From Escherichia phage BP9, in sequence record PP488543.1: 64,000 nt of DNA, one strand, 5' to 3'. Below the pieces are notes generated by a model. The model was not told the origin of the DNA, made no database searches, and worked only from the letters and a program-made list of their open reading frames with translations. This document shows positions 33,055 to 40,955 of this stretch, one piece after another. Made by a program: the position numbers and the translations under genes. The first letter of the stretch is position 1; each line of letters opens with the position of its first letter.

Positions 33055-33741
33055 ATGGCAGAGATTAAGTCGGATGTTAACCACATCCACACTCTGCCAG
33101 ATTTTGTTCAGGGAGGTCTTGACTACCTACCTGGAGATTTTCTGGCTGAGAAGGTTAATTTAGTCACATTCTTAACCGTATACCTTAAAAGGTTGGAGGA
33201 TGTTGATAAGATGCTGGTAGGTTTGGCTGAAGGAAGATTGCTTAACAATGCCAGCGGAAGATACCTTGACGAAGTTGGTAATCAATTTGGTATTCTTAGG
33301 AATGGACTTTCAGATGCTGATTTTCGTGCCACACTAATTATTCAGCAGGCCGCAGCATCAAGGGGCGGGACTCGCGAAGATGTCATCTCCACCTTGCGAC
33401 AATTGTTCGGAAGAGACAATTTCGATACGTGGAAAGGAGACAACTTCAGGTTTGACATAAATATTAGAAAAACTTGCTTTGACATATTGCAGTCTATCGA
33501 TCAGATCTTAGATATGCTACCATTGCCTTGTCATTTGCGTCTTACAGAATCGCAAGGGCAAGCTTTTGGTTTTGAAGGGGACTCTACAGCTCTTGGCTTC
33601 GGATCGGTGTGGGAAGAAAACCAATTCGGAGTTGGTGGGCTGGCTACTTTGCTGTATGTTCCTGACGTAAGACCTGATTGGGACACCACAACCATTTATT
33701 GTGAAAGTATTACAGTAAACGCAACTAGACAGGAGGGTTAA
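33055..33741 (+). CDS. hypothetical baseplate protein (gpI-like position)
   Basis: 228 aa following J-like baseplate gene. Confidence 0.3.
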   Translation: MAEIKSDVNHIHTLPDFVQGGLDYLPGDFLAEKVNLVTFLTVYLKRLEDVDKMLVGLAEGRLLNNASGRYLDEVGNQFGILRNGLSDADFRATLIIQQAAASRGGTREDVISTLRQLFGRDNFDTWKGDNFRFDINIRKTCFDILQSIDQILDMLPLPCHLRLTESQGQAFGFEGDSTALGFGSVWEENQFGVGGLATLLYVPDVRPDWDTTTIYCESITVNATRQEG

Positions 33742-35813
33742 TGGCAACAGCTGTTTTTAAACCTTACCGTGATTACTCTACAATGGCTGCACAGTTTCAT
33801 TACCGAACAGTTCAGGATACTGCCGTTCCTGGTAGGGATTATAATCATGTTGAGGGCGATGTAACTATCCCAATTGGGGCAACCAGTATTGAAATCCCAG
33901 TGGAAATTGTTGACAAATTACCCAACAGGTTACCAAGAAGCTTCTTTATGGAGTTTTCATCAAAATCTCAAGGGGTGATGATTGGGACACAAAGGGCAAA
34001 ATGTACAATAGTTTCAGATGAGAATCTTGACAGGATATCTTGGGATACTGTTGAGGAGAGAATGTTTCACCCAAGATATTGGGTTACAACCACCCAGCAG
34101 ACTGAAAGTACCTGTATTGTTGCAGATGACAACTGTTGTATTAACCGTTTAGTGTCAAGAACATATGGGGGTATGGCTGGGTGCATTTGGGAAACAGTTG
34201 ACAAGTATGACCATTTCGGTATTGGGTTTGATGATCACTATGAGATGAGAAATACCAAGCTTTGGTTCAGAATGTCAATAACCAATGCCAGCAACTTCTC
34301 CACTCCTGAAAAGATGATTATGACTGTAGACCTTGTTGATGGCACAATCATCTATGTTCCTTTAGCTCAATATGCTGTCAGCATCTCAGAGGATAAGAAT
34401 GTTGCAGAAATTCATATTGATTTTGAGGACTGCGTCGGGATGGACCAGAACAACAACATGATGGGTGTTGATCCTCGGCAGGTGAGAAGGATTTTAATAC
34501 CGCTCATGCCTAAAGACTGGGTAAGTAATAGCACAGACCCGAGAACGGAAAATGTAGAGTGCGAGTTGCGCTTAGACCTGCTTCAGCCAGACACAGGTTG
34601 GAAAATGATGCAACTTAACAATATTCAGGTTAAAGAGCACGACGTTGGGATCTGCACTGCATATGACGATATGTGGAACGTATCCCCTTTAAGGGTGTTG
34701 AACAATATCAAGCGTCTGGGCTATACCGGAACCATAAACCATTATGTTGGTATGAGTCATTATTATGACTACACGTGGTCAGGAACCCAATGGTCTATAA
34801 ACAGAACAGGGGCGCTAAACGCTGCAGCTTATAAATGGCATGATGATTTTATGTACAATGCCAAACGACATAACTTCGACGTTATGCAGTCTGTAAGTTT
34901 TGAGCTTTACAGCGATGCCTGCCCGTTGGAATGGACCCAAAGAGACTGGAACGATAACTACGCTAAAACAGGGTATACACCTTGTAGCTACCTCCTGTCT
35001 CCAACCATTGAAGAGGGTATGAATTTCCTTACTGCAGTATTTAAGAATTTTGCATCAGCCGCTATGAGAAACAACCTGCCAGTGATTATGCAGGTTGGTG
35101 AACCGTGGTGGTGGTACAATACCGATACTCGTAGACCTTGTATTTATGATTACCCTACAAAACAGGCGTTTTATGATGAGACAGGCGAGTATGCATTAGA
35201 TATTGGGACTATTGACGATCCTAAAACTGGCGGTGTTTACGATAAGTATGTAGCATTTTGTCGTGGTAAGCTTGGCGCTCGTATTGCGGCTATTTCAAAG
35301 GCAATAAAGGCACACGCTGCATCAGCTCAGATGACAGCTCTGCTGTTTTTCCCAACCATTATGGAAACCGAGCTTACGCAAAAGCTTAACCTTGCTGACC
35401 AATATAAAAAGGAAGCAGGTGCTCTTGATTTCTTCTGCACCGAGTGCTACGATTGGGTGATGCAGGGAGGTATTGAAAAGGCAAAAGAGTCTGTAAACAT
35501 ACCTATCGTTAAGTTAGGTTGGCAACCGTCTGAAATACAATACCTTGCAGGGTTCGTTCCTAGCAAAGAGCTTGCTCCGGTATATGGCTACGACCCAACC
35601 AGGAATTACCAAGAATTCTTATGGAGATGTATCTGCGGAAACATGGCAACTATAGAGTATAGATACCCTGAGGTAAAACAGTATGTGTGGGCATACCCGC
35701 AAGTAATGTCTGACAGCATTACTGTTACCGCTAGAGATTCTACCGTGCTTCATATGGGGCAGGTTGCTCTGAAAGGGTATGTAGAGGATGTTGTCCCGCC
35801 AGACTTCTCATAA
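33741..35813 (+). CDS. large baseplate/fibre-associated protein with N-terminal Calx-beta-like segment
   Basis: 690 aa; GRDYNHVEGDVTIPIGATSIEIPVEIVD resembles Calx-beta motif; Trp-rich C-terminal domain. Confidence 0.3.
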   Translation: MATAVFKPYRDYSTMAAQFHYRTVQDTAVPGRDYNHVEGDVTIPIGATSIEIPVEIVDKLPNRLPRSFFMEFSSKSQGVMIGTQRAKCTIVSDENLDRISWDTVEERMFHPRYWVTTTQQTESTCIVADDNCCINRLVSRTYGGMAGCIWETVDKYDHFGIGFDDHYEMRNTKLWFRMSITNASNFSTPEKMIMTVDLVDGTIIYVPLAQYAVSISEDKNVAEIHIDFEDCVGMDQNNNMMGVDPRQVRRILIPLMPKDWVSNSTDPRTENVECELRLDLLQPDTGWKMMQLNNIQVKEHDVGICTAYDDMWNVSPLRVLNNIKRLGYTGTINHYVGMSHYYDYTWSGTQWSINRTGALNAAAYKWHDDFMYNAKRHNFDVMQSVSFELYSDACPLEWTQRDWNDNYAKTGYTPCSYLLSPTIEEGMNFLTAVFKNFASAAMRNNLPVIMQVGEPWWWYNTDTRRPCIYDYPTKQAFYDETGEYALDIGTIDDPKTGGVYDKYVAFCRGKLGARIAAISKAIKAHAASAQMTALLFFPTIMETELTQKLNLADQYKKEAGALDFFCTECYDWVMQGGIEKAKESVNIPIVKLGWQPSEIQYLAGFVPSKELAPVYGYDPTRNYQEFLWRCICGNMATIEYRYPEVKQYVWAYPQVMSDSITVTARDSTVLHMGQVALKGYVEDVVPPDFS

Positions 35814-35825
35814 TCAGGAGATAAA

Positions 35826-36866
35826 ATGTCAAAACCTAGTTTTCCATTAGAGATTTGGGCAGAGGAGGATCAGGTTCTGCCTAACACCCACAGACAGAAC
35901 AGGCTACGCCCGATTGATGATTTGTGGAGAAAAGGTTGGGATCTTGGTCAAAAGCCCTCATGTGAAGAACTTAACTATATTTTCAATATGCTCGGAACTT
36001 GGGCAAAATACATTGCTGACGAGCAGATCCCCGCTCAAGAAGGCCGTTATCTGGTACGTGATAATAACTTGAGTGATCTTTTGAACATCCCTGTTGCCCG
36101 TAGAAACCTTGGGATTATTACCAAGGAAGAGGCAGACGCCAGGTATGTAAAAGTTACAGGTGATACAATGACAGGCCCGTTGGGTTTGCAACGTATCAAC
36201 TTTAAAGCTGCCGAGACAGATAAGGCTTGGATAGAGACAACTATTGGCCCAGATAAGACAACTCTCGACTTCGGGTTAAGTGATAATATTGGGTCGTTTG
36301 ATGATGGTGGTACATCTACAGTAGATGCGTTTCGTTGGAGATTCCAGCCAACTCAGCCGGATATTAATCCAGAGTTCACTTTGATGTACCTTAACGCGAT
36401 CACGGCGAACCGTGCGCTGTTGAAAGTGGTAGGCAATGTTGAAGTTGTCGATAACATGAGGTGCAATAACCTTACTATCAGCAATACAGCAACATTCACC
36501 AACTGTAATGTGGCTAGTCAGTTGACGGCCGGGTCAGTATATGTTAATGGTGGTGCAAGTTGTGACAGCATGGTTGTAAGAAGTCAGCACTGTGTTGTCG
36601 GTAACAGAAATGTGGTTCGCTCTGTGAACGGAGTGACGGCTAACGGTAACGGTGATGTAACGATCACTATCCCGCAGACAGGTGTGCAAGACATCAGAAT
36701 CGGTGCAAGACTTGTTGACGGCGTTTCTGAATCTCCAATTCGCAACGGCTACGTTGTCACAGGCTGGCATTTCGGTGACAAAAAAGAGATGCGTGGTTCA
36801 ACCTACTGGGCAGGACCTTTACAAAAACTTGTAAATGGTCAATGGATCACTGTTAATTATGCATAG
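35826..36866 (+). CDS. tail fibre protein (P2 gpH-like) copy 1
   Basis: 346 aa; conserved N-terminus (PLEIWAEED...KGWDLGQKP) and C-terminal tip QKLVNGQWITVNYA; followed by Tfa chaperone. Confidence 0.7.
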   Translation: MSKPSFPLEIWAEEDQVLPNTHRQNRLRPIDDLWRKGWDLGQKPSCEELNYIFNMLGTWAKYIADEQIPAQEGRYLVRDNNLSDLLNIPVARRNLGIITKEEADARYVKVTGDTMTGPLGLQRINFKAAETDKAWIETTIGPDKTTLDFGLSDNIGSFDDGGTSTVDAFRWRFQPTQPDINPEFTLMYLNAITANRALLKVVGNVEVVDNMRCNNLTISNTATFTNCNVASQLTAGSVYVNGGASCDSMVVRSQHCVVGNRNVVRSVNGVTANGNGDVTITIPQTGVQDIRIGARLVDGVSESPIRNGYVVTGWHFGDKKEMRGSTYWAGPLQKLVNGQWITVNYA

Positions 36867-36880
36867 ATCGGAGGACTAGC

Positions 36881-37465
36881 ATGAAAATACTTCAAGAGTT
36901 TAAACTTTACCAACCGGGATCTGGCGAATACCACGCCAACAAGGAAACCAAAGAGCTGACCCCTCAAGAGGTTGAGGATTACACCGCATACACTGGGTAT
37001 TTTTTACGTAATGATGATGGCGATTGGTATGTGCAGTCACGAACATTACGACAAGAAAATCCGGGTTGTATCTTCCTACTTGTTGACGAGAAGGGAATTC
37101 TTAAGACATCTACAGAAGAACCTGATGCCTTATGGCCTGCTCCAGGTCTTCGTGTGGTTATCGCCAAAAAAGAAGAGGTACCAGAAAACATTATGCTTCA
37201 CCACGACGCTTTGCGTTTAGTTGGTGATGAATTTGTCACAGATAATGAATTCTTTGTTCAACAGGCAGAGGGTGTCATAGAGACAGAACTTGCTTGGGCT
37301 ACTGCTAGAATTGGTGCCTATCAAGACATGATTGACCTTGAATATGATCTTACTGATGACCAGAAACGTAACATCAGGGATTTGAAAATGTACAGGGTAA
37401 AACTTCTTGAAATAGATACATCTAAAGCCCCTGACATTTTCTTCCCGGAGCGACCTACCCTCTAA
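36881..37465 (+). CDS. tail fibre assembly chaperone (Tfa / gpG-like)
   Basis: 194 aa; C-terminal ...AWATARIGAYQDMIDLEYDLT...LKMYRVKLLEID...FFPERP typical of Tfa family. Confidence 0.75.
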   Translation: MKILQEFKLYQPGSGEYHANKETKELTPQEVEDYTAYTGYFLRNDDGDWYVQSRTLRQENPGCIFLLVDEKGILKTSTEEPDALWPAPGLRVVIAKKEEVPENIMLHHDALRLVGDEFVTDNEFFVQQAEGVIETELAWATARIGAYQDMIDLEYDLTDDQKRNIRDLKMYRVKLLEIDTSKAPDIFFPERPTL

Positions 37466-37476
37466 GAGGAGGTGTT

Positions 37477-37791
37477 GTGGAGTTGGATTTGGCGGCATTG
37501 TACGGTATCTGCATGGGTACCGTTGTCCCGATCTGTGTATGGGCTTTCAACCAGTGGCACACCAAATGGAAAGGCATTTCCAAGAGGCTGGATGAACTGG
37601 AGAAAGACCTCATCTTAGTGAAAAACAGTATGGTTACAAAAGATAAACTTGATTCCGTTATCGAGACCCGGTTAAGCAAGCTAGAGGCCGATATTAACGA
37701 CCTTAAGCAGGATGTCAGGACAGATGTCTCCGGCATCAGAGCTGATGTACAAAAGATTTTGCACATGCTTGTAGAGCATAGTAAAAGGTAA
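37477..37791 (+). CDS. small membrane-anchored coiled-coil protein of unknown function
   Basis: 104 aa; N-terminal hydrophobic helix LAALYGICMGTVVPICVWAF then heptad-rich region; strong SD AAGAGGAGG; last gene before terminator. Confidence 0.5.
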   Translation: MELDLAALYGICMGTVVPICVWAFNQWHTKWKGISKRLDELEKDLILVKNSMVTKDKLDSVIETRLSKLEADINDLKQDVRTDVSGIRADVQKILHMLVEHSKR

Positions 37792-37800
37792 ACAAAGGTC

Positions 37801-37830
37801 AGAACGGAAAGGACTCCGTTCTTGCATTTT
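37801..37830 (+). terminator. intrinsic terminator
   Basis: AGAACGG-AAAGGACT-CCGTTCT then TGCATTTTGTT. Confidence 0.7.
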
Positions 37831-37850
37831 GTTCTCTAAAGTGTTAAAAT
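37822..37850 (+). promoter_or_regulatory. sigma70-type promoter (TTGCAT, 17 bp, TAAAAT)
   Basis: -35 37822-37827 overlaps terminator tail; -10 37845-37850. Confidence 0.55.
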
Positions 37851-37877
37851 AGTTCTAAGGAATTTTCTCAGGAGAAC

Positions 37878-38924
37878 GTGATGACTAAACCAGTTATCCC
37901 TCTTGATATTTGGGCCAATCAGGATGTTGTGCTTGAAAATACGGGAGAGTTGAATAAATCTCAACCAAAAAAAGAAGAGAGATTGAAAGGTTGGGATATG
38001 ACACAAAGAATGGCATGTGAAGTTGTTAACTTTGAACTTCACATGCTTTCTGCGTGGTTGAAGCATTTAACAGAAGATGTTGTCCCTGGATGGGATAATA
38101 GATTCTTAAGGGTCACTAATAATCTGGCAGACGTTCCAGACAAAGCTGCTGCACGTCAAGTTCTCAATGTATACTCGCCTGAAGAAATGGATGACCTTTA
38201 TGTTGACAAGACTGGAGACACAATGATCCAGACTCAAACTTTAGGTCTTCAAAGGATCGAGTTTGCATCTGCGTCAACAGACAATGCGGCGATATACACC
38301 ACCATAACTCCAGACAAGACGATGATGGATTTCTGGATTATGGACAACATCGGTGGTGCTGACGGCACAGACCTTGATGACCCTTCTCACCAAATAGACG
38401 GTTTCCGTTGGAGATTTCAACCTTCTGGTGGGCAGCCTGTGTTTTCGGCTATGAAGCTCAATGCTATAACTGCCAACCGTGCAAGACTGGCTATCCAAGG
38501 AAATCTTGAATGCAATGATGCAAAAAGCTCCTCTGCAAATGCTAATGCGGTAACGATACCAAGAGCCACTGTTAATGGGCAACAATCCTGCGGCAGCGCT
38601 CAAATAGGTGGAAGAGTAGATTGTAACGATAAAACCGCCAGGGGTCAATATGCAACAGTTGGTGGAAGAAACGTGGTCCGCAGGGTAAATGGTAGTAGCG
38701 CAGATAGCAGTGGTAACCTTACTATTCCTATGCCTAGTAGGGGTGTTGAAGATGTAAGGATAGCAAACCGTTTCAGAACCACCTATAGAGAATCAAGAGT
38801 ATACCCTGGGCATGTAATGTGCTCCGGCAATTACGCCTATAAACACCCGTATCAGGGCGACTATTGGACTGGAGCTATTCAAAAATTTGTAAACGGTCAA
38901 TGGATCACCATATCTTATGCTTAA
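37878..38924 (+). CDS. tail fibre protein (P2 gpH-like) copy 2
   Basis: 348 aa; paralog of 35826 ORF (PLDIWANQD...KGWDMTQRM; tip QKFVNGQWITISYA); start GTG 37878 or ATG 37881 after SD AGGAGA. Confidence 0.7.
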   Translation: MMTKPVIPLDIWANQDVVLENTGELNKSQPKKEERLKGWDMTQRMACEVVNFELHMLSAWLKHLTEDVVPGWDNRFLRVTNNLADVPDKAAARQVLNVYSPEEMDDLYVDKTGDTMIQTQTLGLQRIEFASASTDNAAIYTTITPDKTMMDFWIMDNIGGADGTDLDDPSHQIDGFRWRFQPSGGQPVFSAMKLNAITANRARLAIQGNLECNDAKSSSANANAVTIPRATVNGQQSCGSAQIGGRVDCNDKTARGQYATVGGRNVVRRVNGSSADSSGNLTIPMPSRGVEDVRIANRFRTTYRESRVYPGHVMCSGNYAYKHPYQGDYWTGAIQKFVNGQWITISYA

Positions 38925-38933
38925 AGAGGGTAA

Positions 38934-39200
38934 ATGAAATTAACTCAGTTTTTATGGGGACTGGTTGCAGCATCTGATGACCCTACAAAAGTGTCCCAAT
39001 CTAAGCTATGGTCAAACATAGGCATGGCAGTGATGACTGGGGTGTTTATTCATATGGGGTACAATGATACGCTTCCTGAATGGTATGCGTGGATATACGC
39101 ACCTTCGGTAGCCTGCCCCCAGCTTATTAGCAAATTCATCTCGCTCCGGTGGGGTTGCCAGCACCCTGACCACGTTAAAAACGAAGAGCAAAAAGCTTAA
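38934..39200 (+). CDS. small membrane protein of unknown function
   Basis: 88 aa; hydrophobic segment NIGMAVMTGVFIHMGY; directly downstream of fibre copy 2. Confidence 0.4.
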   Translation: MKLTQFLWGLVAASDDPTKVSQSKLWSNIGMAVMTGVFIHMGYNDTLPEWYAWIYAPSVACPQLISKFISLRWGCQHPDHVKNEEQKA

Positions 39201-39209
39201 GGAGAAATC

Positions 39210-40955
39210 ATGGCGCAAGACATGACAAGCTTCGAGCAGGCGGTAGATCAAGTAATTGTTGATTCTGAACGTTTGCACTTGATTGTCAACGGTAACGCTG
39301 TGGATGAAGTTGTCGTAGAGGATGGGACCACTATCCCTACGGTACGAAAAGCCATGCTTGACACCCTTTATTTTAAAACGCCACCAATCCCTTGGGCGTA
39401 TGGTGCATCCACAACAGTTTTTAACCAGTTGTATGAGTTTAAAGGGGATACAGGCACTCAGTGGTGGTACGCCCCAGCAGCATCAAAATCTAACCCAGTT
39501 AGGATGCCAGCAGATCCTTCACAATCTCCGAACTGGAGATTATATACAGATTCTGCAGTAATGGCAAAATACTACGCAAAACTTAACAGCCCAAGGTTCG
39601 AAGGTGATCCGAGAGCACCTACACCTCCAATGGACGATAAGTCCGAGTCTATAGCAAACACAGAGTTTGTTGTTGACTATGTGGATAGTATATTCAAAGC
39701 CATGGAGGGGATGAAAGTAACTGTAGGGTCTTTGGTAGTGAAAGGTCTTACAGAACTGGCTAACACCATAGTTGGTGGCACCCTTACCATACACGGGCCT
39801 GTTAATGGGGCTGATTCTACTGCACGCTTCAGGAACCTAATCCTTACTGCAAATACTTCTACACTAACTTTTGCGTGGAGCGATCCTAAGCATGCAGACT
39901 GGAGAAGCACAGAGCTGCAACCTCATGAAGTGGTCACCCACAGAGTTATAGCTGACACTATAACTTCTGGGAAACCAGTGGCTAATAACAACGATGTGCA
40001 TTTTGATGGTCTAGGTAATAACTTTTTTGACTACGTGTACATTCGTGGTAATGCCATGAAGGCAGCAACCGAACCGACATTGCAGGTTGATGGGACCACC
40101 AGGGTTAAGAACCTTGAGGTGACAGGCACCGTTACAGGGATAACCTACTCTGTGGATGGCACCATGATCTACCCTAGCTATATTGAAAGCACAGGGGATG
40201 CACTGATCAATGGGGATTTAGAGGTTGGCGGATCTATAGTCATTCGTGGCACAGCATCTGTTCAGAACATATCTTTAAATACTCTGAGGGTGAATGAGCG
40301 TGCCACTTTTGAAGGGGAAGGGCTTACTGCCAACAAAGGTGTGATTACCGAGCTGACAGCCACCACTCTAACTGCAACAACTGCAAACTCTGAAAACTGC
40401 AACGTTACCCGCAACTTGCAGGTAAATGGAGATGTTAGTTTAAACGCAGCAGGTACGGGTACCACCTCTGTTCACAACCTTGAAATATCTGGCACGGTGA
40501 CTGGGTGGCTGCCAGACTTCTCTAATGTCAACTTTGTCTGCAACGGCATTAACTCTAGTGGTAAGATAACCACCTCTCAAGAAATTGAGGCTGGTAAAAC
40601 TATTACTGCCCCTACTTTCCACGCAGGGAAGGTAGATTTTGATCTAGAGGAGGTTGACGCATCAGGTGGGACATGGACACCTAACGGGCAGGCCAGCATG
40701 TATGTTGTCCACGCGAAAGGGGATTTTACAATAGGCCAATGGCCTGGAACATCGGCTGAAGATAAACCTTACCCGTTTACTGCAATCATCTATGTCATTC
40801 AAGATGCTGTAGGCCACAACGTGACTTTGCACGATAAATATGCCATACTGTCGGCTACCCCTGTCATTAACAACAAAGCCAACAGCGTTACCTTGCTACA
40901 ATTGACATATTGTGGTGTTGGTGATATTGTGGATGTGGTTATTGCACAACGTTAA
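39210..40955 (+). CDS. tail fibre / tailspike-like protein
   Basis: 581 aa; repetitive TGTVTG-type beta-rich segments; SD AAGGAGA. Confidence 0.45.
   Translation: MAQDMTSFEQAVDQVIVDSERLHLIVNGNAVDEVVVEDGTTIPTVRKAMLDTLYFKTPPIPWAYGASTTVFNQLYEFKGDTGTQWWYAPAASKSNPVRMPADPSQSPNWRLYTDSAVMAKYYAKLNSPRFEGDPRAPTPPMDDKSESIANTEFVVDYVDSIFKAMEGMKVTVGSLVVKGLTELANTIVGGTLTIHGPVNGADSTARFRNLILTANTSTLTFAWSDPKHADWRSTELQPHEVVTHRVIADTITSGKPVANNNDVHFDGLGNNFFDYVYIRGNAMKAATEPTLQVDGTTRVKNLEVTGTVTGITYSVDGTMIYPSYIESTGDALINGDLEVGGSIVIRGTASVQNISLNTLRVNERATFEGEGLTANKGVITELTATTLTATTANSENCNVTRNLQVNGDVSLNAAGTGTTSVHNLEISGTVTGWLPDFSNVNFVCNGINSSGKITTSQEIEAGKTITAPTFHAGKVDFDLEEVDASGGTWTPNGQASMYVVHAKGDFTIGQWPGTSAEDKPYPFTAIIYVIQDAVGHNVTLHDKYAILSATPVINNKANSVTLLQLTYCGVGDIVDVVIAQR

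What the first reader, a model, noticed from the sequence alone, without database searches (positions are those of the whole stretch)
37477..39200. Small membrane proteins encoded immediately after each of the two gpH-like fibre genes
Fibre copy 1 is followed by its Tfa chaperone and then a 104-aa protein with one N-terminal transmembrane helix plus a coiled coil. Fibre copy 2 is followed directly by an 88-aa membrane protein. Neither has a lipobox or an embedded spanin partner. This placement resembles receptor-masking or superinfection-exclusion genes that sit beside receptor-binding genes in other phages, but they could instead be lysis-timing or fibre-maturation factors.
Basis: inference. 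Interest (0 to 1): 0.65.

Follow-up and report, generated by a model that had tools for sequence, protein, structure and literature searches.

The report
Probable lysis proteins among tail-fibre genes
The two small membrane proteins next to the tail-fibre genes of this rV5-like coliphage are real, deeply conserved genes that most likely control host-cell lysis (one may be the long-missing holin) rather than mask the phage receptor.

Summary
The window is an rV5-like Vequintavirus (97-99% nucleotide identity). The two ORFs are rV5 gp31 (ORF A, 37477-37791, 104 aa) and gp29 (ORF B, 38934-39200, 88 aa). Both are already annotated, without function.

A has one N-terminal TMD plus a long helix. B has two weak hydrophobic segments. 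Neither has a lipobox or an embedded partner.

The "one membrane protein per fibre" pairing is accidental. In Seunavirus and Certrevirus the order is fibre-Tfa-A-X-B-fibre. rV5-likes have a paralogous fibre where X sits.

B belongs to phrog_1322, which includes Pfam DUF2644. In three Mu-like phages this family lies directly between the endolysin and the i-spanin, the holin slot (hhalign 95% to ORF B's family).

A is predicted N-out/C-in in 95 of 95 relatives. It resembles DUF2730, the family of the Mu gp25 releasin, only remotely (hhalign 77%; no Pfam hit).

The rV5 endolysin is soluble, and lysis specialists could not identify the holin of rV5-like phages.

Best reading (about 0.5): B is the holin and A a cytoplasm-facing lysis regulator. 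Receptor masking is unlikely, because B is conserved like baseplate proteins, across phages with different fibres. All function is inferred; nothing was tested experimentally.

The parts
35826..36866 (+). Tail fibre copy 1 (rV5 gp33 homologue, 346 aa)
   Evidence: phrog_4465 tail fiber, E 8.9e-172. Annotated short tail fiber / tail fiber protein in relatives.
36881..37465 (+). Tail fibre assembly chaperone Tfa (rV5 gp32 homologue, 194 aa)
   Evidence: Pfam Caudo_TAP, E 8.4e-12. phrog_136, E 2.1e-36.
37477..37791 (+). ORF A (rV5 gp31 homologue, 104 aa). An N-terminal TMD followed by a long helix, predicted N-out/C-in. Candidate DUF2730-like (releasin-like) lysis regulator.
   Evidence: phrog_5345, E 1.1e-48. 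Topology statistics on 95 relatives. AF2 single helix, pLDDT 80. hhalign against DUF2730: 76.7% probability, E 2.1e-5, z about 7 against 100 block permutations.
37489..37557 (+). TMD of ORF A (residues ~5-27)
   Evidence: Kyte-Doolittle mean up to 1.9. Family mean 2.17, with the TMD starting at about residue 5.
37801..37822 (+). Terminator-like hairpin between ORF A and fibre copy 2
   Evidence: Stem of 8-9 pairs followed by a T-rich tail. This is a consensus scan only. Its function was not tested.
37878..38924 (+). Tail fibre copy 2 (rV5 gp30 homologue, 348 aa). It occupies the slot where relatives carry membrane protein X.
   Evidence: phrog_4465, E 2.8e-164. 43% identical to copy 1. X has no homologue in the window.
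38934..39200 (+). ORF B (rV5 gp29 homologue, 88 aa). Two-TMD small membrane protein of phrog_1322 / DUF2644-related family. Candidate holin.
   Evidence: phrog_1322, E 2.7e-32. hhalign against the Mu-like lysis-cassette trio: 95.4% probability, E 1.8e-8. The only recurring Pfam hit among 70 family representatives is DUF2644.
39006..39062 (+). TMD1 of ORF B (residues ~25-43), preceded by the family motif S-x-x-K-x-W
   Evidence: S21, K24 and W26 are nearly invariant in 70 representatives.
39081..39143 (+). Weakly hydrophobic TMD2 of ORF B (residues ~50-70)
   Evidence: KD 0.95 here, but 1.5-2.0 at the aligned segment in the Pasteurella, Mendera and ACP17 relatives.
39210..40955 (+). Larger tail fibre (rV5 gp28 homologue, 581 aa), directly downstream of B
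   Evidence: phrog_4549, E 2.2e-248. Annotated as a lateral tail fiber.

Best explanation
ORF B and ORF A are two non-structural inner-membrane proteins expressed from the late tail-fibre operon, and they act in host lysis.

ORF B is the phage's holin, or at least a holin-type component. It is a small hairpin of two TMDs, predicted N-in/C-in, with a charged C-terminus. It would accumulate in the inner membrane late in infection and, on triggering, let the soluble lambda-R-like endolysin reach the cell wall.

ORF A is an N-out/C-in membrane-tethered cytoplasmic helical protein of the same architecture as the Mu gp25 'releasin' family (DUF2730), and probably distantly related to it. It would modulate the timing or efficiency of that step, as a holin regulator or antiholin-like partner.

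Shown here: the genes, their conservation, family membership (phrog_1322), predicted topology, and the position of relatives in lysis cassettes.

Inferred: every functional step, namely hole formation, timing control and any A-B interaction.

The position beside the fibre genes is a matter of late-operon organisation, as with T4 t after gene 38 and T7 17.5 after gene 17 (textbook knowledge, not tested here). It is not a link to receptor binding.
For: 1. B's family lies in the holin slot of Mu-like phages.
- ORF B matches phrog_1322 at E 2.7e-32.
- The same family matches the small membrane protein lying directly between endolysin and i-spanin in three phages:
  - Pseudomonas phage Bise, E 1.2e-19, with an M15 peptidase that has no signal sequence;
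  - Ralstonia phage RS138, E 8.6e-23, where RefSeq labels the neighbours endolysin and Rz-like spanin;
  - Pasteurella phage AFS-2018a, E 1.4e-24, where the protein is also Pfam DUF2644 at E 4.5e-33.
- A profile built only from Vequintavirus-type B proteins aligns to these three with hhalign probability 95.4%, E 1.8e-8. The score is 47.3, against 11.0 +/- 2.9 in 100 column permutations.
- In Pseudoalteromonas phage HS6 the cassette has a GTA_holin_3TM holin and no small TMD ORF after the endolysin.

2. A holin is needed and missing.
- The rV5 endolysin is a soluble lambda-R-like enzyme without a SAR or signal segment.
- The spanins are accounted for next to TerL.
- The Center for Phage Technology states that the holin of the rV5-like phage LL12 'could not be positively identified'. 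The same is reported for Marzo/Mendera-type phages, which also carry a phrog_1322 gene.
- The 2013 candidate, rV5 gp129, is restricted to the genus and lies in the early small-ORF block.

3. B has holin-like features: 80-90 aa, two conserved hydrophobic segments, an acidic loop and a charged C-terminus. It sits in the late structural operon.

4. A resembles the releasin family.
- Predicted N-out/C-in in 95 of 95 relatives, as reported for Mu gp25 (PMC9239132).
- hhalign of the A family against DUF2730 gives 76.7% probability, E 2.1e-5, over the TMD and the first half of the helix. The reversed control gives 1.4%. Block permutations give 13.2 +/- 2.8 (maximum 23.6) against an observed score of 33.9.
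- The most frequent cross-family PHROG hit of 97 A members is phrog_462 (35 of 97). That is the family of the protein in the gp25 position of the Bise cassette.

5. The two families co-occur in two unrelated phage lineages: A-X-B in Seunavirus and Certrevirus, and DUF2644 with DUF2730 in AFS-2018a.

6. Neither protein was seen in virions.
- No gp29 or gp31 peptides in the rV5 mass-spectrometry table.
- The CB7 virion analysis detected CB7_29-31 and 36-37 but not 32-35. By synteny these are Tfa, A, X and B (the synteny step is my inference).
Against: - No experiment exists for any member of phrog_1322 / DUF2644. No paper in the library mentions DUF2644.
- ORF B does not hit the Pfam DUF2644 model, and only 3 of 70 family representatives do.
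- ORF B is not related to lambda S105 or S21 68.
- Its hydrophobic segments are weak: TMD2 contains P, Q and K, and no TMD was called in 2013. The AF2 model is of low confidence.
- In this phage the endolysin is about 50 kb away, so there is no local lysis cassette.
- None of 97 A members hits the Pfam DUF2730 model. The A family also gives weak PHROG hits to Rz-like spanin families (16 and 12 of 97). hhalign to the single Bise 92-aa protein gives nothing.
- A always follows the Tfa and has diverged as much as the Tfa has (32%), which also fits a role with the fibre.
Confidence: 0.5

Rival explanations
1. Fibre or baseplate assembly factors. A and/or B are non-virion helpers anchored in the inner membrane that assist folding, trimerisation or attachment of the fibres encoded next to them. 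They would be absent from the finished particle, like a chaperone.
For: - Synteny is strict across distant lineages. A or an A-like protein directly follows the Tfa in Vequintavirus, Seunavirus, Certrevirus, phi92-like phages and Aeromonas phiA047.
- In SSE121 the Tfa, A and X reading frames overlap.
- B directly precedes a fibre gene or the wedge gene.
- A has diverged as much as the Tfa, 32% each.
- Neither protein was detected in virions, as for chaperones.
Against: - Relatives of B lie in lysis cassettes of Mu-like phages, away from tail genes. In Mendera and ACP17 they lie as lone genes beside the DNA polymerase gene.
- B is much better conserved than the fibres.
- No similarity to Caudo_TAP or any chaperone family.
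- Membrane anchoring of fibre chaperones is not an established mechanism (my knowledge).
Confidence: 0.2
2. Superinfection exclusion or receptor masking. The proteins change the envelope of the infected cell so that further phages cannot adsorb or inject.
For: - Location beside receptor-binding genes.
- PHROGs files phrog_1322 under 'moron, auxiliary metabolic gene and host takeover'.
- In Mendera and ACP17 the homologue is a lone gene next to DNA polymerase gp43, the neighbourhood where T4 carries imm.
- An inner-membrane protein could in principle block DNA entry.
Against: - A's soluble domain is predicted to be cytoplasmic.
- No lipobox, unlike Llp and Cor.
- B against T4 Imm: hhalign probability 0.2%.
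- Conservation is independent of host and fibre type.
- The genes sit in a late operon, whereas known exclusion genes act early (my knowledge).
- Homologues lie between endolysin and spanin in Mu-like phages.
Confidence: 0.1
3. ORF A is an i-spanin (Rz-like): an N-terminal TMD with a periplasmic coiled coil that joins an outer-membrane partner to disrupt the outer membrane at lysis.
For: - N-terminal TMD plus coiled coil.
- Weak PHROG hits of some A members to Rz-like spanin families: phrog_7686 in 16 of 97 and phrog_739 in 12 of 97.
Against: - The charge distribution predicts the opposite topology (N-out/C-in) in 95 of 95 members.
- No embedded, overlapping or adjacent lipoprotein gene.
- A separate i-/o-spanin pair next to TerL is already assigned in rV5-like phages.
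- hhalign to three i-spanins gives 0.4% probability or less.
Confidence: 0.03

Closest known systems
phrog_1322 / Pfam DUF2644 (PF10841): small membrane proteins next to the endolysin of Mu-like phages (Pasteurella AFS-2018a ORF16, Haemophilus SuMu, Pseudomonas Bise, Ralstonia RS138 ORF27)
   Same: - ORF B is a clear member of phrog_1322 (E 2.7e-32).
- It shares the S-x-x-K-x-W motif, two hydrophobic segments and a size of 75-90 aa.
- hhalign probability 95%.
   Different: - ORF B does not reach the Pfam DUF2644 model.
- Here the gene lies in the tail-fibre module of a 137-kb virulent myophage, about 50 kb from the endolysin.
- The family has no tested function.
Mu gp25 'releasin', DUF2730 (PF10805); Chamblee et al. 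2022, PMC9239132
   Same: - About 100 aa, with an N-terminal TMD.
- Predicted N-out/C-in with a cytoplasmic helical domain.
- Profile-profile match over the TMD and first helix half (76.7%).
- Co-occurs with a DUF2644-type protein.
   Different: - No Pfam DUF2730 hit in 97 members.
- Not in a transposable phage and not within 5 genes of the endolysin.
- The cognate endolysin is soluble, not SAR, so the Mu mechanism of SAR-endolysin release cannot apply as such.
Class II holins such as phage 21 S68 and T7 gp17.5
   Same: - Small size, two TMDs, charged C-terminus, late expression.
- T7 17.5 also follows the tail-fibre gene (textbook knowledge).
   Different: - No detectable sequence relation.
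- No dual-start motif.
- Hole formation is untested.
Receptor-blocking or exclusion proteins beside receptor-binding genes (T5 Llp, T1/phi80 Cor, T4 Imm and Sp)
   Same: Small envelope proteins; some are encoded next to receptor-binding genes.
   Different: - Llp and Cor are lipoproteins, and no lipobox is present here.
- T4 Imm is unrelated.
- A faces the cytoplasm.
- Conservation does not track the fibres.

Membership tests
phrog_1322 (includes DUF2644 proteins) | Significant match to the family HMM | tested here: met
   ORF B scores E 2.7e-32 over 1-87 of 87 profile positions. Bise, RS138, AFS-2018a, ACP17 and Mendera members score 1e-9 to 1e-24.
Pfam DUF2644 (PF10841) | Match to PF10841 above the gathering score | tested here: not met
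   ORF B has no Pfam hit at E<=1. Only 3 of 70 family representatives hit it, best E 2e-4. AFS-2018a ORF16 hits at 4.5e-33 and is also in phrog_1322. The link is therefore at the level of profiles, not of Pfam membership.
Holin | Small protein with at least one TMD and a hydrophilic charged C-terminus | tested here: met
   88 aa. Hydrophobic segments at ~25-43 and ~50-70. The C-terminus is LRWGCQHPDHVKNEEQKA.
Holin | Encoded next to endolysin and spanin genes | tested here: not met
   In rV5 the endolysin lies at 71.6 kb against gp29 at 20.9 kb. The feature is met for homologues in Bise, RS138 and AFS-2018a.
Holin | Late expression | tested here: inconclusive
   The gene lies inside the co-directional late structural operon. 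No transcript data are available.
Holin | Lethal membrane hole formation that energy poisons can trigger, and that releases endolysin | not testable with these tools
   Needs expression and complementation experiments.
DUF2730 / releasin (Mu gp25) | Match to PF10805 above the gathering score | tested here: not met
   None of the 97 A-family members lists PF10805 at E<=1. Mu gp25 and five other DUF2730 proteins hit it at 1e-10 to 1e-31.
DUF2730 / releasin (Mu gp25) | N-terminal TMD with N-out/C-in topology | tested here: met
   95 of 95 members have no K/R in the N-flank (net charge -1) and a mean of 3.8 K/R in the 15 residues after the TMD. This is a prediction from the positive-inside rule only.
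DUF2730 / releasin (Mu gp25) | Remote homology by profile-profile comparison | tested here: inconclusive
   hhalign probability 76.7%, E 2.1e-5, over 51 columns. The reversed control gives 1.4%. 100 block permutations reach at most 23.6 against an observed score of 33.9.
DUF2730 / releasin (Mu gp25) | [quoted passage not shown] | tested here: not met
   This is a virulent Vequintavirus, the gene lies in the fibre module, and the endolysin is soluble.
i-spanin (Rz-like) | N-in/C-out topology and a partner o-spanin lipoprotein gene (embedded, overlapping or adjacent) | tested here: not met
   The predicted topology is the opposite one. No + strand lipobox ORF lies in 37400-39300. The spanins are assigned elsewhere in the genome.
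Receptor-masking lipoproteins (Llp, Cor) | Signal peptide with a lipobox | tested here: not met
   Neither ORF has a lipobox.
T4 Imm | Sequence or profile similarity to Imm | tested here: not met
   hhalign of the B family against T4 Imm gives probability 0.2%.

The most novel reading that the evidence does not exclude
phrog_1322 / DUF2644 is an unrecognised holin family that supplies the 'missing' holin of rV5-like, PVP-SE1-like, phi92-like and Mendera-like myophages. It would work together with a DUF2730-like, cytoplasm-facing membrane-tethered partner. A two-protein lysis-control module would then be shared between transposable Mu-like phages and large virulent myophages, and the releasin family would not be confined to transposable phages or to SAR endolysins.
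Probability: 0.35. Interest if true: 0.65.

Novelty: new variant of a known kind. Interest (0 to 1): 0.5.

Why it matters
rV5-like and related myophages are widely used in biocontrol and phage-therapy cocktails. Yet their holin, the protein that sets lysis time and burst size, has never been identified. Lysis specialists state this explicitly for LL12 and Marzo.

A concrete, testable candidate (gp29 and its family) would close that gap. It would also give a function to Pfam DUF2644.

[quoted passage not shown] The unexplained DUF2730 proteins that are paired with soluble endolysins would gain a plausible role as holin partners.

The analysis also removes a tempting but wrong annotation of these genes as receptor-masking or exclusion genes.

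Tried and rejected
Searches that gave no usable lead:
- Pfam and NCBIfam on A, B and X gave nothing beyond coiled-coil noise.
- The word-indexed homologue searches with single proteins found only close relatives.
With the Bise protein it found a single prophage locus in genome contigs. With Mu gp25 it found only 94-100% identical copies.
- No paper in the library mentions DUF2644. The Mannheimia and SuMu literature gives no holin assignment for this family.

Structure prediction:
- The AF2 model of B is too poor for fold search (pLDDT 58).
- The AF2 model of A is one featureless helix.
- I therefore ran no fold searches.

Ideas rejected:
- i-spanin for A: rejected on topology, absence of a partner gene, and the existing spanin pair.
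- T4 Imm homology for B: rejected.
- Relation of B to lambda S105 or S21 68: rejected.
- rV5 gp129 as the conserved holin: disfavoured, because it is restricted to the genus and lies in the early block.

Left open:
- I looked for a T4-type late promoter upstream of the Mendera and ACP17 homologues and could not decide.
- The phi92 virion paper (PMC3457257) is not held.
- hhalign of the A family against the single Bise 92-aa protein gave nothing, although the PHROG HMMs link the two families weakly.
Full report
**What the window is.** The region 35800-39300 is 97-98.7% identical at the nucleotide level to rV5-like coliphages (Vequintavirus: rV5, JES2013, YN3, BASEL phages). In rV5 numbering the local gene order is:
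- gp33, fibre copy 1 (35826-36866)
- gp32, Tfa (36881-37465)
- gp31, ORF A (37477-37791)
- gp30, fibre copy 2 (37878-38924)
- gp29, ORF B (38934-39200)
- gp28, a larger fibre (39210-40955)

These assignments rest. Both small genes are already annotated. They are called 'hypothetical protein' or 'membrane protein' and have no assigned function. The 2013 rV5 paper lists ORF31 as 'membrane protein, 1 TMD' and gives no prediction for ORF29 (PMC3606486, Table S3).

**Check of the observation.** The description is correct.
- ORF A starts at a GTG behind a GAGGAGG ribosome-binding site. It has one strongly hydrophobic N-terminal segment. AlphaFold2 models it as a single long helix (pLDDT 80).
- ORF B starts 9 nt after fibre copy 2. 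It has two moderately hydrophobic segments (KD 1.27 and 0.95). The aligned segments are clearly hydrophobic in relatives. Its AF2 model is unreliable (pLDDT 58).
- The Tfa is genuine (Caudo_TAP, E 8.4e-12).
- The two fibres are 43% identical paralogues.
- No + strand ORF with a lipobox lies in 37400-39300.
- Neither ORF is a chance reading frame. A has 185 relatives and matches in 225 phage records. B has 72 representative clusters in 1.84 billion proteins and matches in 390 phage records.

**The fibre/membrane-protein pairing is accidental.** Three comparisons show this.
- In Salmonella phage SSE121 (Seunavirus) and Cronobacter phage CR8 (Certrevirus) the order is fibre, Tfa, A, X, B, large fibre. 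X is a 152-157 aa polytopic membrane protein (phrog_7451). Its start overlaps the stop of A.
- rV5-like phages lack X anywhere in this 64-kb window. They carry the second fibre paralogue in that slot.
- In phi92-like and phAPEC8-like phages, B lies upstream of the baseplate wedge gene and an A-like protein follows the Tfa. In Aeromonas phiA047 the order is Tfa, A-like, B, fibre.

The ancestral state is therefore a small cluster of membrane-protein genes inside the late tail module. It is not one membrane protein per fibre.

**What ORF B is.** ORF B belongs to phrog_1322 (E 2.7e-32). The same family holds the small membrane protein lying directly between the endolysin and the i-spanin in three unrelated Mu-like phages:
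- Pseudomonas phage Bise: M15 peptidase, then an 80-aa protein (E 1.2e-19), then Rz with an embedded Rz1.
- Ralstonia phage RS138: endolysin, then ORF27 (E 8.6e-23), then Rz/Rz1.
- Pasteurella phage AFS-2018a: amidase, then ORF16 (E 1.4e-24), then a protein with an N-terminal TMD, then DUF2730. ORF16 is also Pfam DUF2644 at E 4.5e-33.

Further support for this family link:
- Related Pasteurellaceae Mu-like phages (SuMu, Pmp9, 3927AP2) have the same gene next to the amidase.
- A profile built only from Vequintavirus-type B proteins matches the three Mu-like proteins with hhalign probability 95.4% (E 1.8e-8). The score is 47.3, against 11.0 +/- 2.9 for 100 column permutations.
- Among 70 family representatives found by exhaustive HMMER, the only Pfam family hit more than once is DUF2644.
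- S21, K24, W26, Y55 and K67 are nearly invariant.
- ORF B itself does not reach the Pfam model. The link is therefore at the level of profiles.
- In Pseudoalteromonas phage HS6 the cassette carries a GTA_holin_3TM holin instead.
- Mendera and ACP17 (T4-like phages) carry a version with an extra N-terminal TMD, as a lone opposite-strand gene beside the DNA polymerase gene.

**Why a holin is the best reading for B.**
- The rV5 endolysin is a soluble lambda-R-like enzyme with no SAR or signal segment. A hole-forming holin is therefore required (established lysis biology).
- The spanin pair is already assigned next to TerL (PMC7344957; PMC6658697).
[quoted passage not shown] For Marzo, a Mendera-like phage, no holin or endolysin could be identified.
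- The older candidate, rV5 gp129, is confined to the genus (115 records, all Vequintavirus). It lies in the block of small early ORFs.
- B is small, has two TMDs, an acidic loop and a charged C-terminus. It sits in the late operon.
- B is conserved across every lineage examined. Between this window and SSE121 it is 56% identical. The baseplate proteins are 60-63% identical and the fibres 44-45%.
- The Bise M15 peptidase also lacks a signal sequence. There the phrog_1322 protein is the only plausible holin in the cassette.

**What ORF A is.**
- All 95 relatives have a TMD starting near residue 5. They have no K/R before it (net charge -1) and on average 3.8 K/R in the next 15 residues. By the positive-inside rule this predicts N-out/C-in.
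- That is the topology reported for the Mu gp25 releasin, a membrane-tethered cytoplasmic protein needed to release the Mu SAR endolysin (PMC9239132). It is the opposite of an i-spanin.
- No A member hits the Pfam DUF2730 model (0 of 97).
- A profile-profile comparison of the A family with six diverse DUF2730 proteins gives 76.7% probability (E 2.1e-5, 51 columns covering the TMD and the first half of the helix).
- Controls for that comparison: the reversed alignment gives 1.4%. One hundred permutations that keep the TMD block and the helix block give scores of 13.2 +/- 2.8 (maximum 23.6), against an observed 33.9.
- The commonest cross-family PHROG hit of A members is phrog_462 (35 of 97). 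This is the family of the 92-aa protein that occupies the gp25 position in the Bise cassette. Weaker hits go to the gp25 family phrog_736 (5 of 97) and to Rz-like families (16 and 12 of 97).

I regard A as architecturally equivalent to DUF2730 proteins and possibly a distant relative. It is not a demonstrated member. Because the rV5 endolysin is not a SAR enzyme, the Mu mechanism cannot apply as such. A role as a partner or regulator of the B-type holin is an inference. It rests on the co-occurrence of the two families in both lineages.

**Virion data.**
- No gp29 or gp31 peptide occurs in the rV5 mass-spectrometry table.
- The CB7 virion analysis found CB7_29-31 and CB7_36-37 but none of CB7_32-35. 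By synteny with CR8 these are Tfa, A, X and B (the numbering is my inference).
- The 2026 phi92 structure lists no small membrane protein among the baseplate components.
- Small hydrophobic proteins are easily missed by mass spectrometry, so this evidence is weak.

**Rivals.**
- A role in fibre or baseplate assembly (0.2) is kept alive by the strict Tfa-A synteny and by A diverging as much as the Tfa. It does not explain the Mu-like and Mendera contexts.
- Receptor masking or superinfection exclusion (0.1) is disfavoured by topology, by the absence of a lipobox, by the lack of similarity to T4 Imm, and by conservation that ignores host and fibre type.
- An i-spanin role for A (0.03) fails on topology and on the absence of a partner gene.

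**Verdict.** Its fallback (lysis timing) is the best-supported reading, at a confidence of about 0.5, and it rests on comparative evidence only. The result yields a directly testable candidate for the unidentified holin of rV5-like phages. It also suggests a possible extension of the releasin-type family beyond transposable phages.

Noticed in passing
window 37801-37822: A terminator-like hairpin (AGAACGGAAAGGACTCCGTTCT followed by a T-rich tail) lies directly after the ORF A stop and before fibre copy 2. It could split the fibre1-Tfa-A unit from the fibre2-B unit.
   Followed up: no
L003 5312-5785 (SSE121 gp45); L004 5336-5794 (CR8_031): A polytopic membrane protein X (152-157 aa, phrog_7451, no Pfam hit) sits between A and B in Seunavirus and Certrevirus. 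Its start overlaps the stop of A. It has no homologue in the 64-kb window. Its size and polytopic character recall P2 LysA-type lysis regulators (from memory, untested).
   Followed up: partly
GenBank MG0656xx records: Sixteen to twenty-one records named 'Campylobacter phage' with host C. jejuni are about 97% identical to rV5-like coliphages across this locus. They are probably contaminants or mislabelled.
   Followed up: no
L029 3851-4234 (Mendera gp032); L030 3914-4351 (ACP17 gp115): These are phrog_1322 proteins with an extra N-terminal TMD (three TMDs). Each is encoded as a lone opposite-strand gene between the DNA polymerase gp43 gene and the dUTPase/clamp-loader gene cluster (with regA in ACP17) of a T4-like phage. 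No holin has been identified for this phage group. A possible TATAAATA-like element lies about 105 nt upstream in Mendera and was not resolved.
   Followed up: partly
L011 5023-5244 (RS138 ORF30): A 73-aa protein with an N-terminal coiled coil and a C-terminal TMD (an XhlA-like arrangement) occupies the slot where Mu carries gp25. Its orientation is the reverse of the DUF2730 architecture.
   Followed up: no
window 33741-35813: A 690-aa protein carries Calx-beta, NCTSP_N and a 'non-contractile tail sheath protein' TIM-barrel domain (E 1.9e-79), although this is a contractile-tailed phage. BASEL records annotate it as a lateral tail fibre with glycosidase/deacetylase domains.
   Followed up: no
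P0010-P0019 (metagenomic B homologues): Several B homologues of 113-126 aa carry a C-terminal extension rich in Y, D, S and R (for example ...YPYDEYSDSGYRGYPDDKYPEYSGNRHSDPIESEDYRELRR) that is absent from the cultured phages.
   Followed up: no
L007 6110-6316 (rV5 ORF 90): The 68-aa ORF just downstream of the rV5 endolysin has a signal-peptide-like or lipoprotein-like N-terminus (MKDFLLAILFMAACLACG...). It looks exported rather than holin-like.
   Followed up: no
P0029: An A-family protein is named 'DUF2746 domain-containing protein [Staphylococcus haemolyticus]' by NCBI. It lies on 148-kb phage-sized contigs. The name and host are probably artefacts, and no such family was recovered in my scans.
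   Followed up: partly
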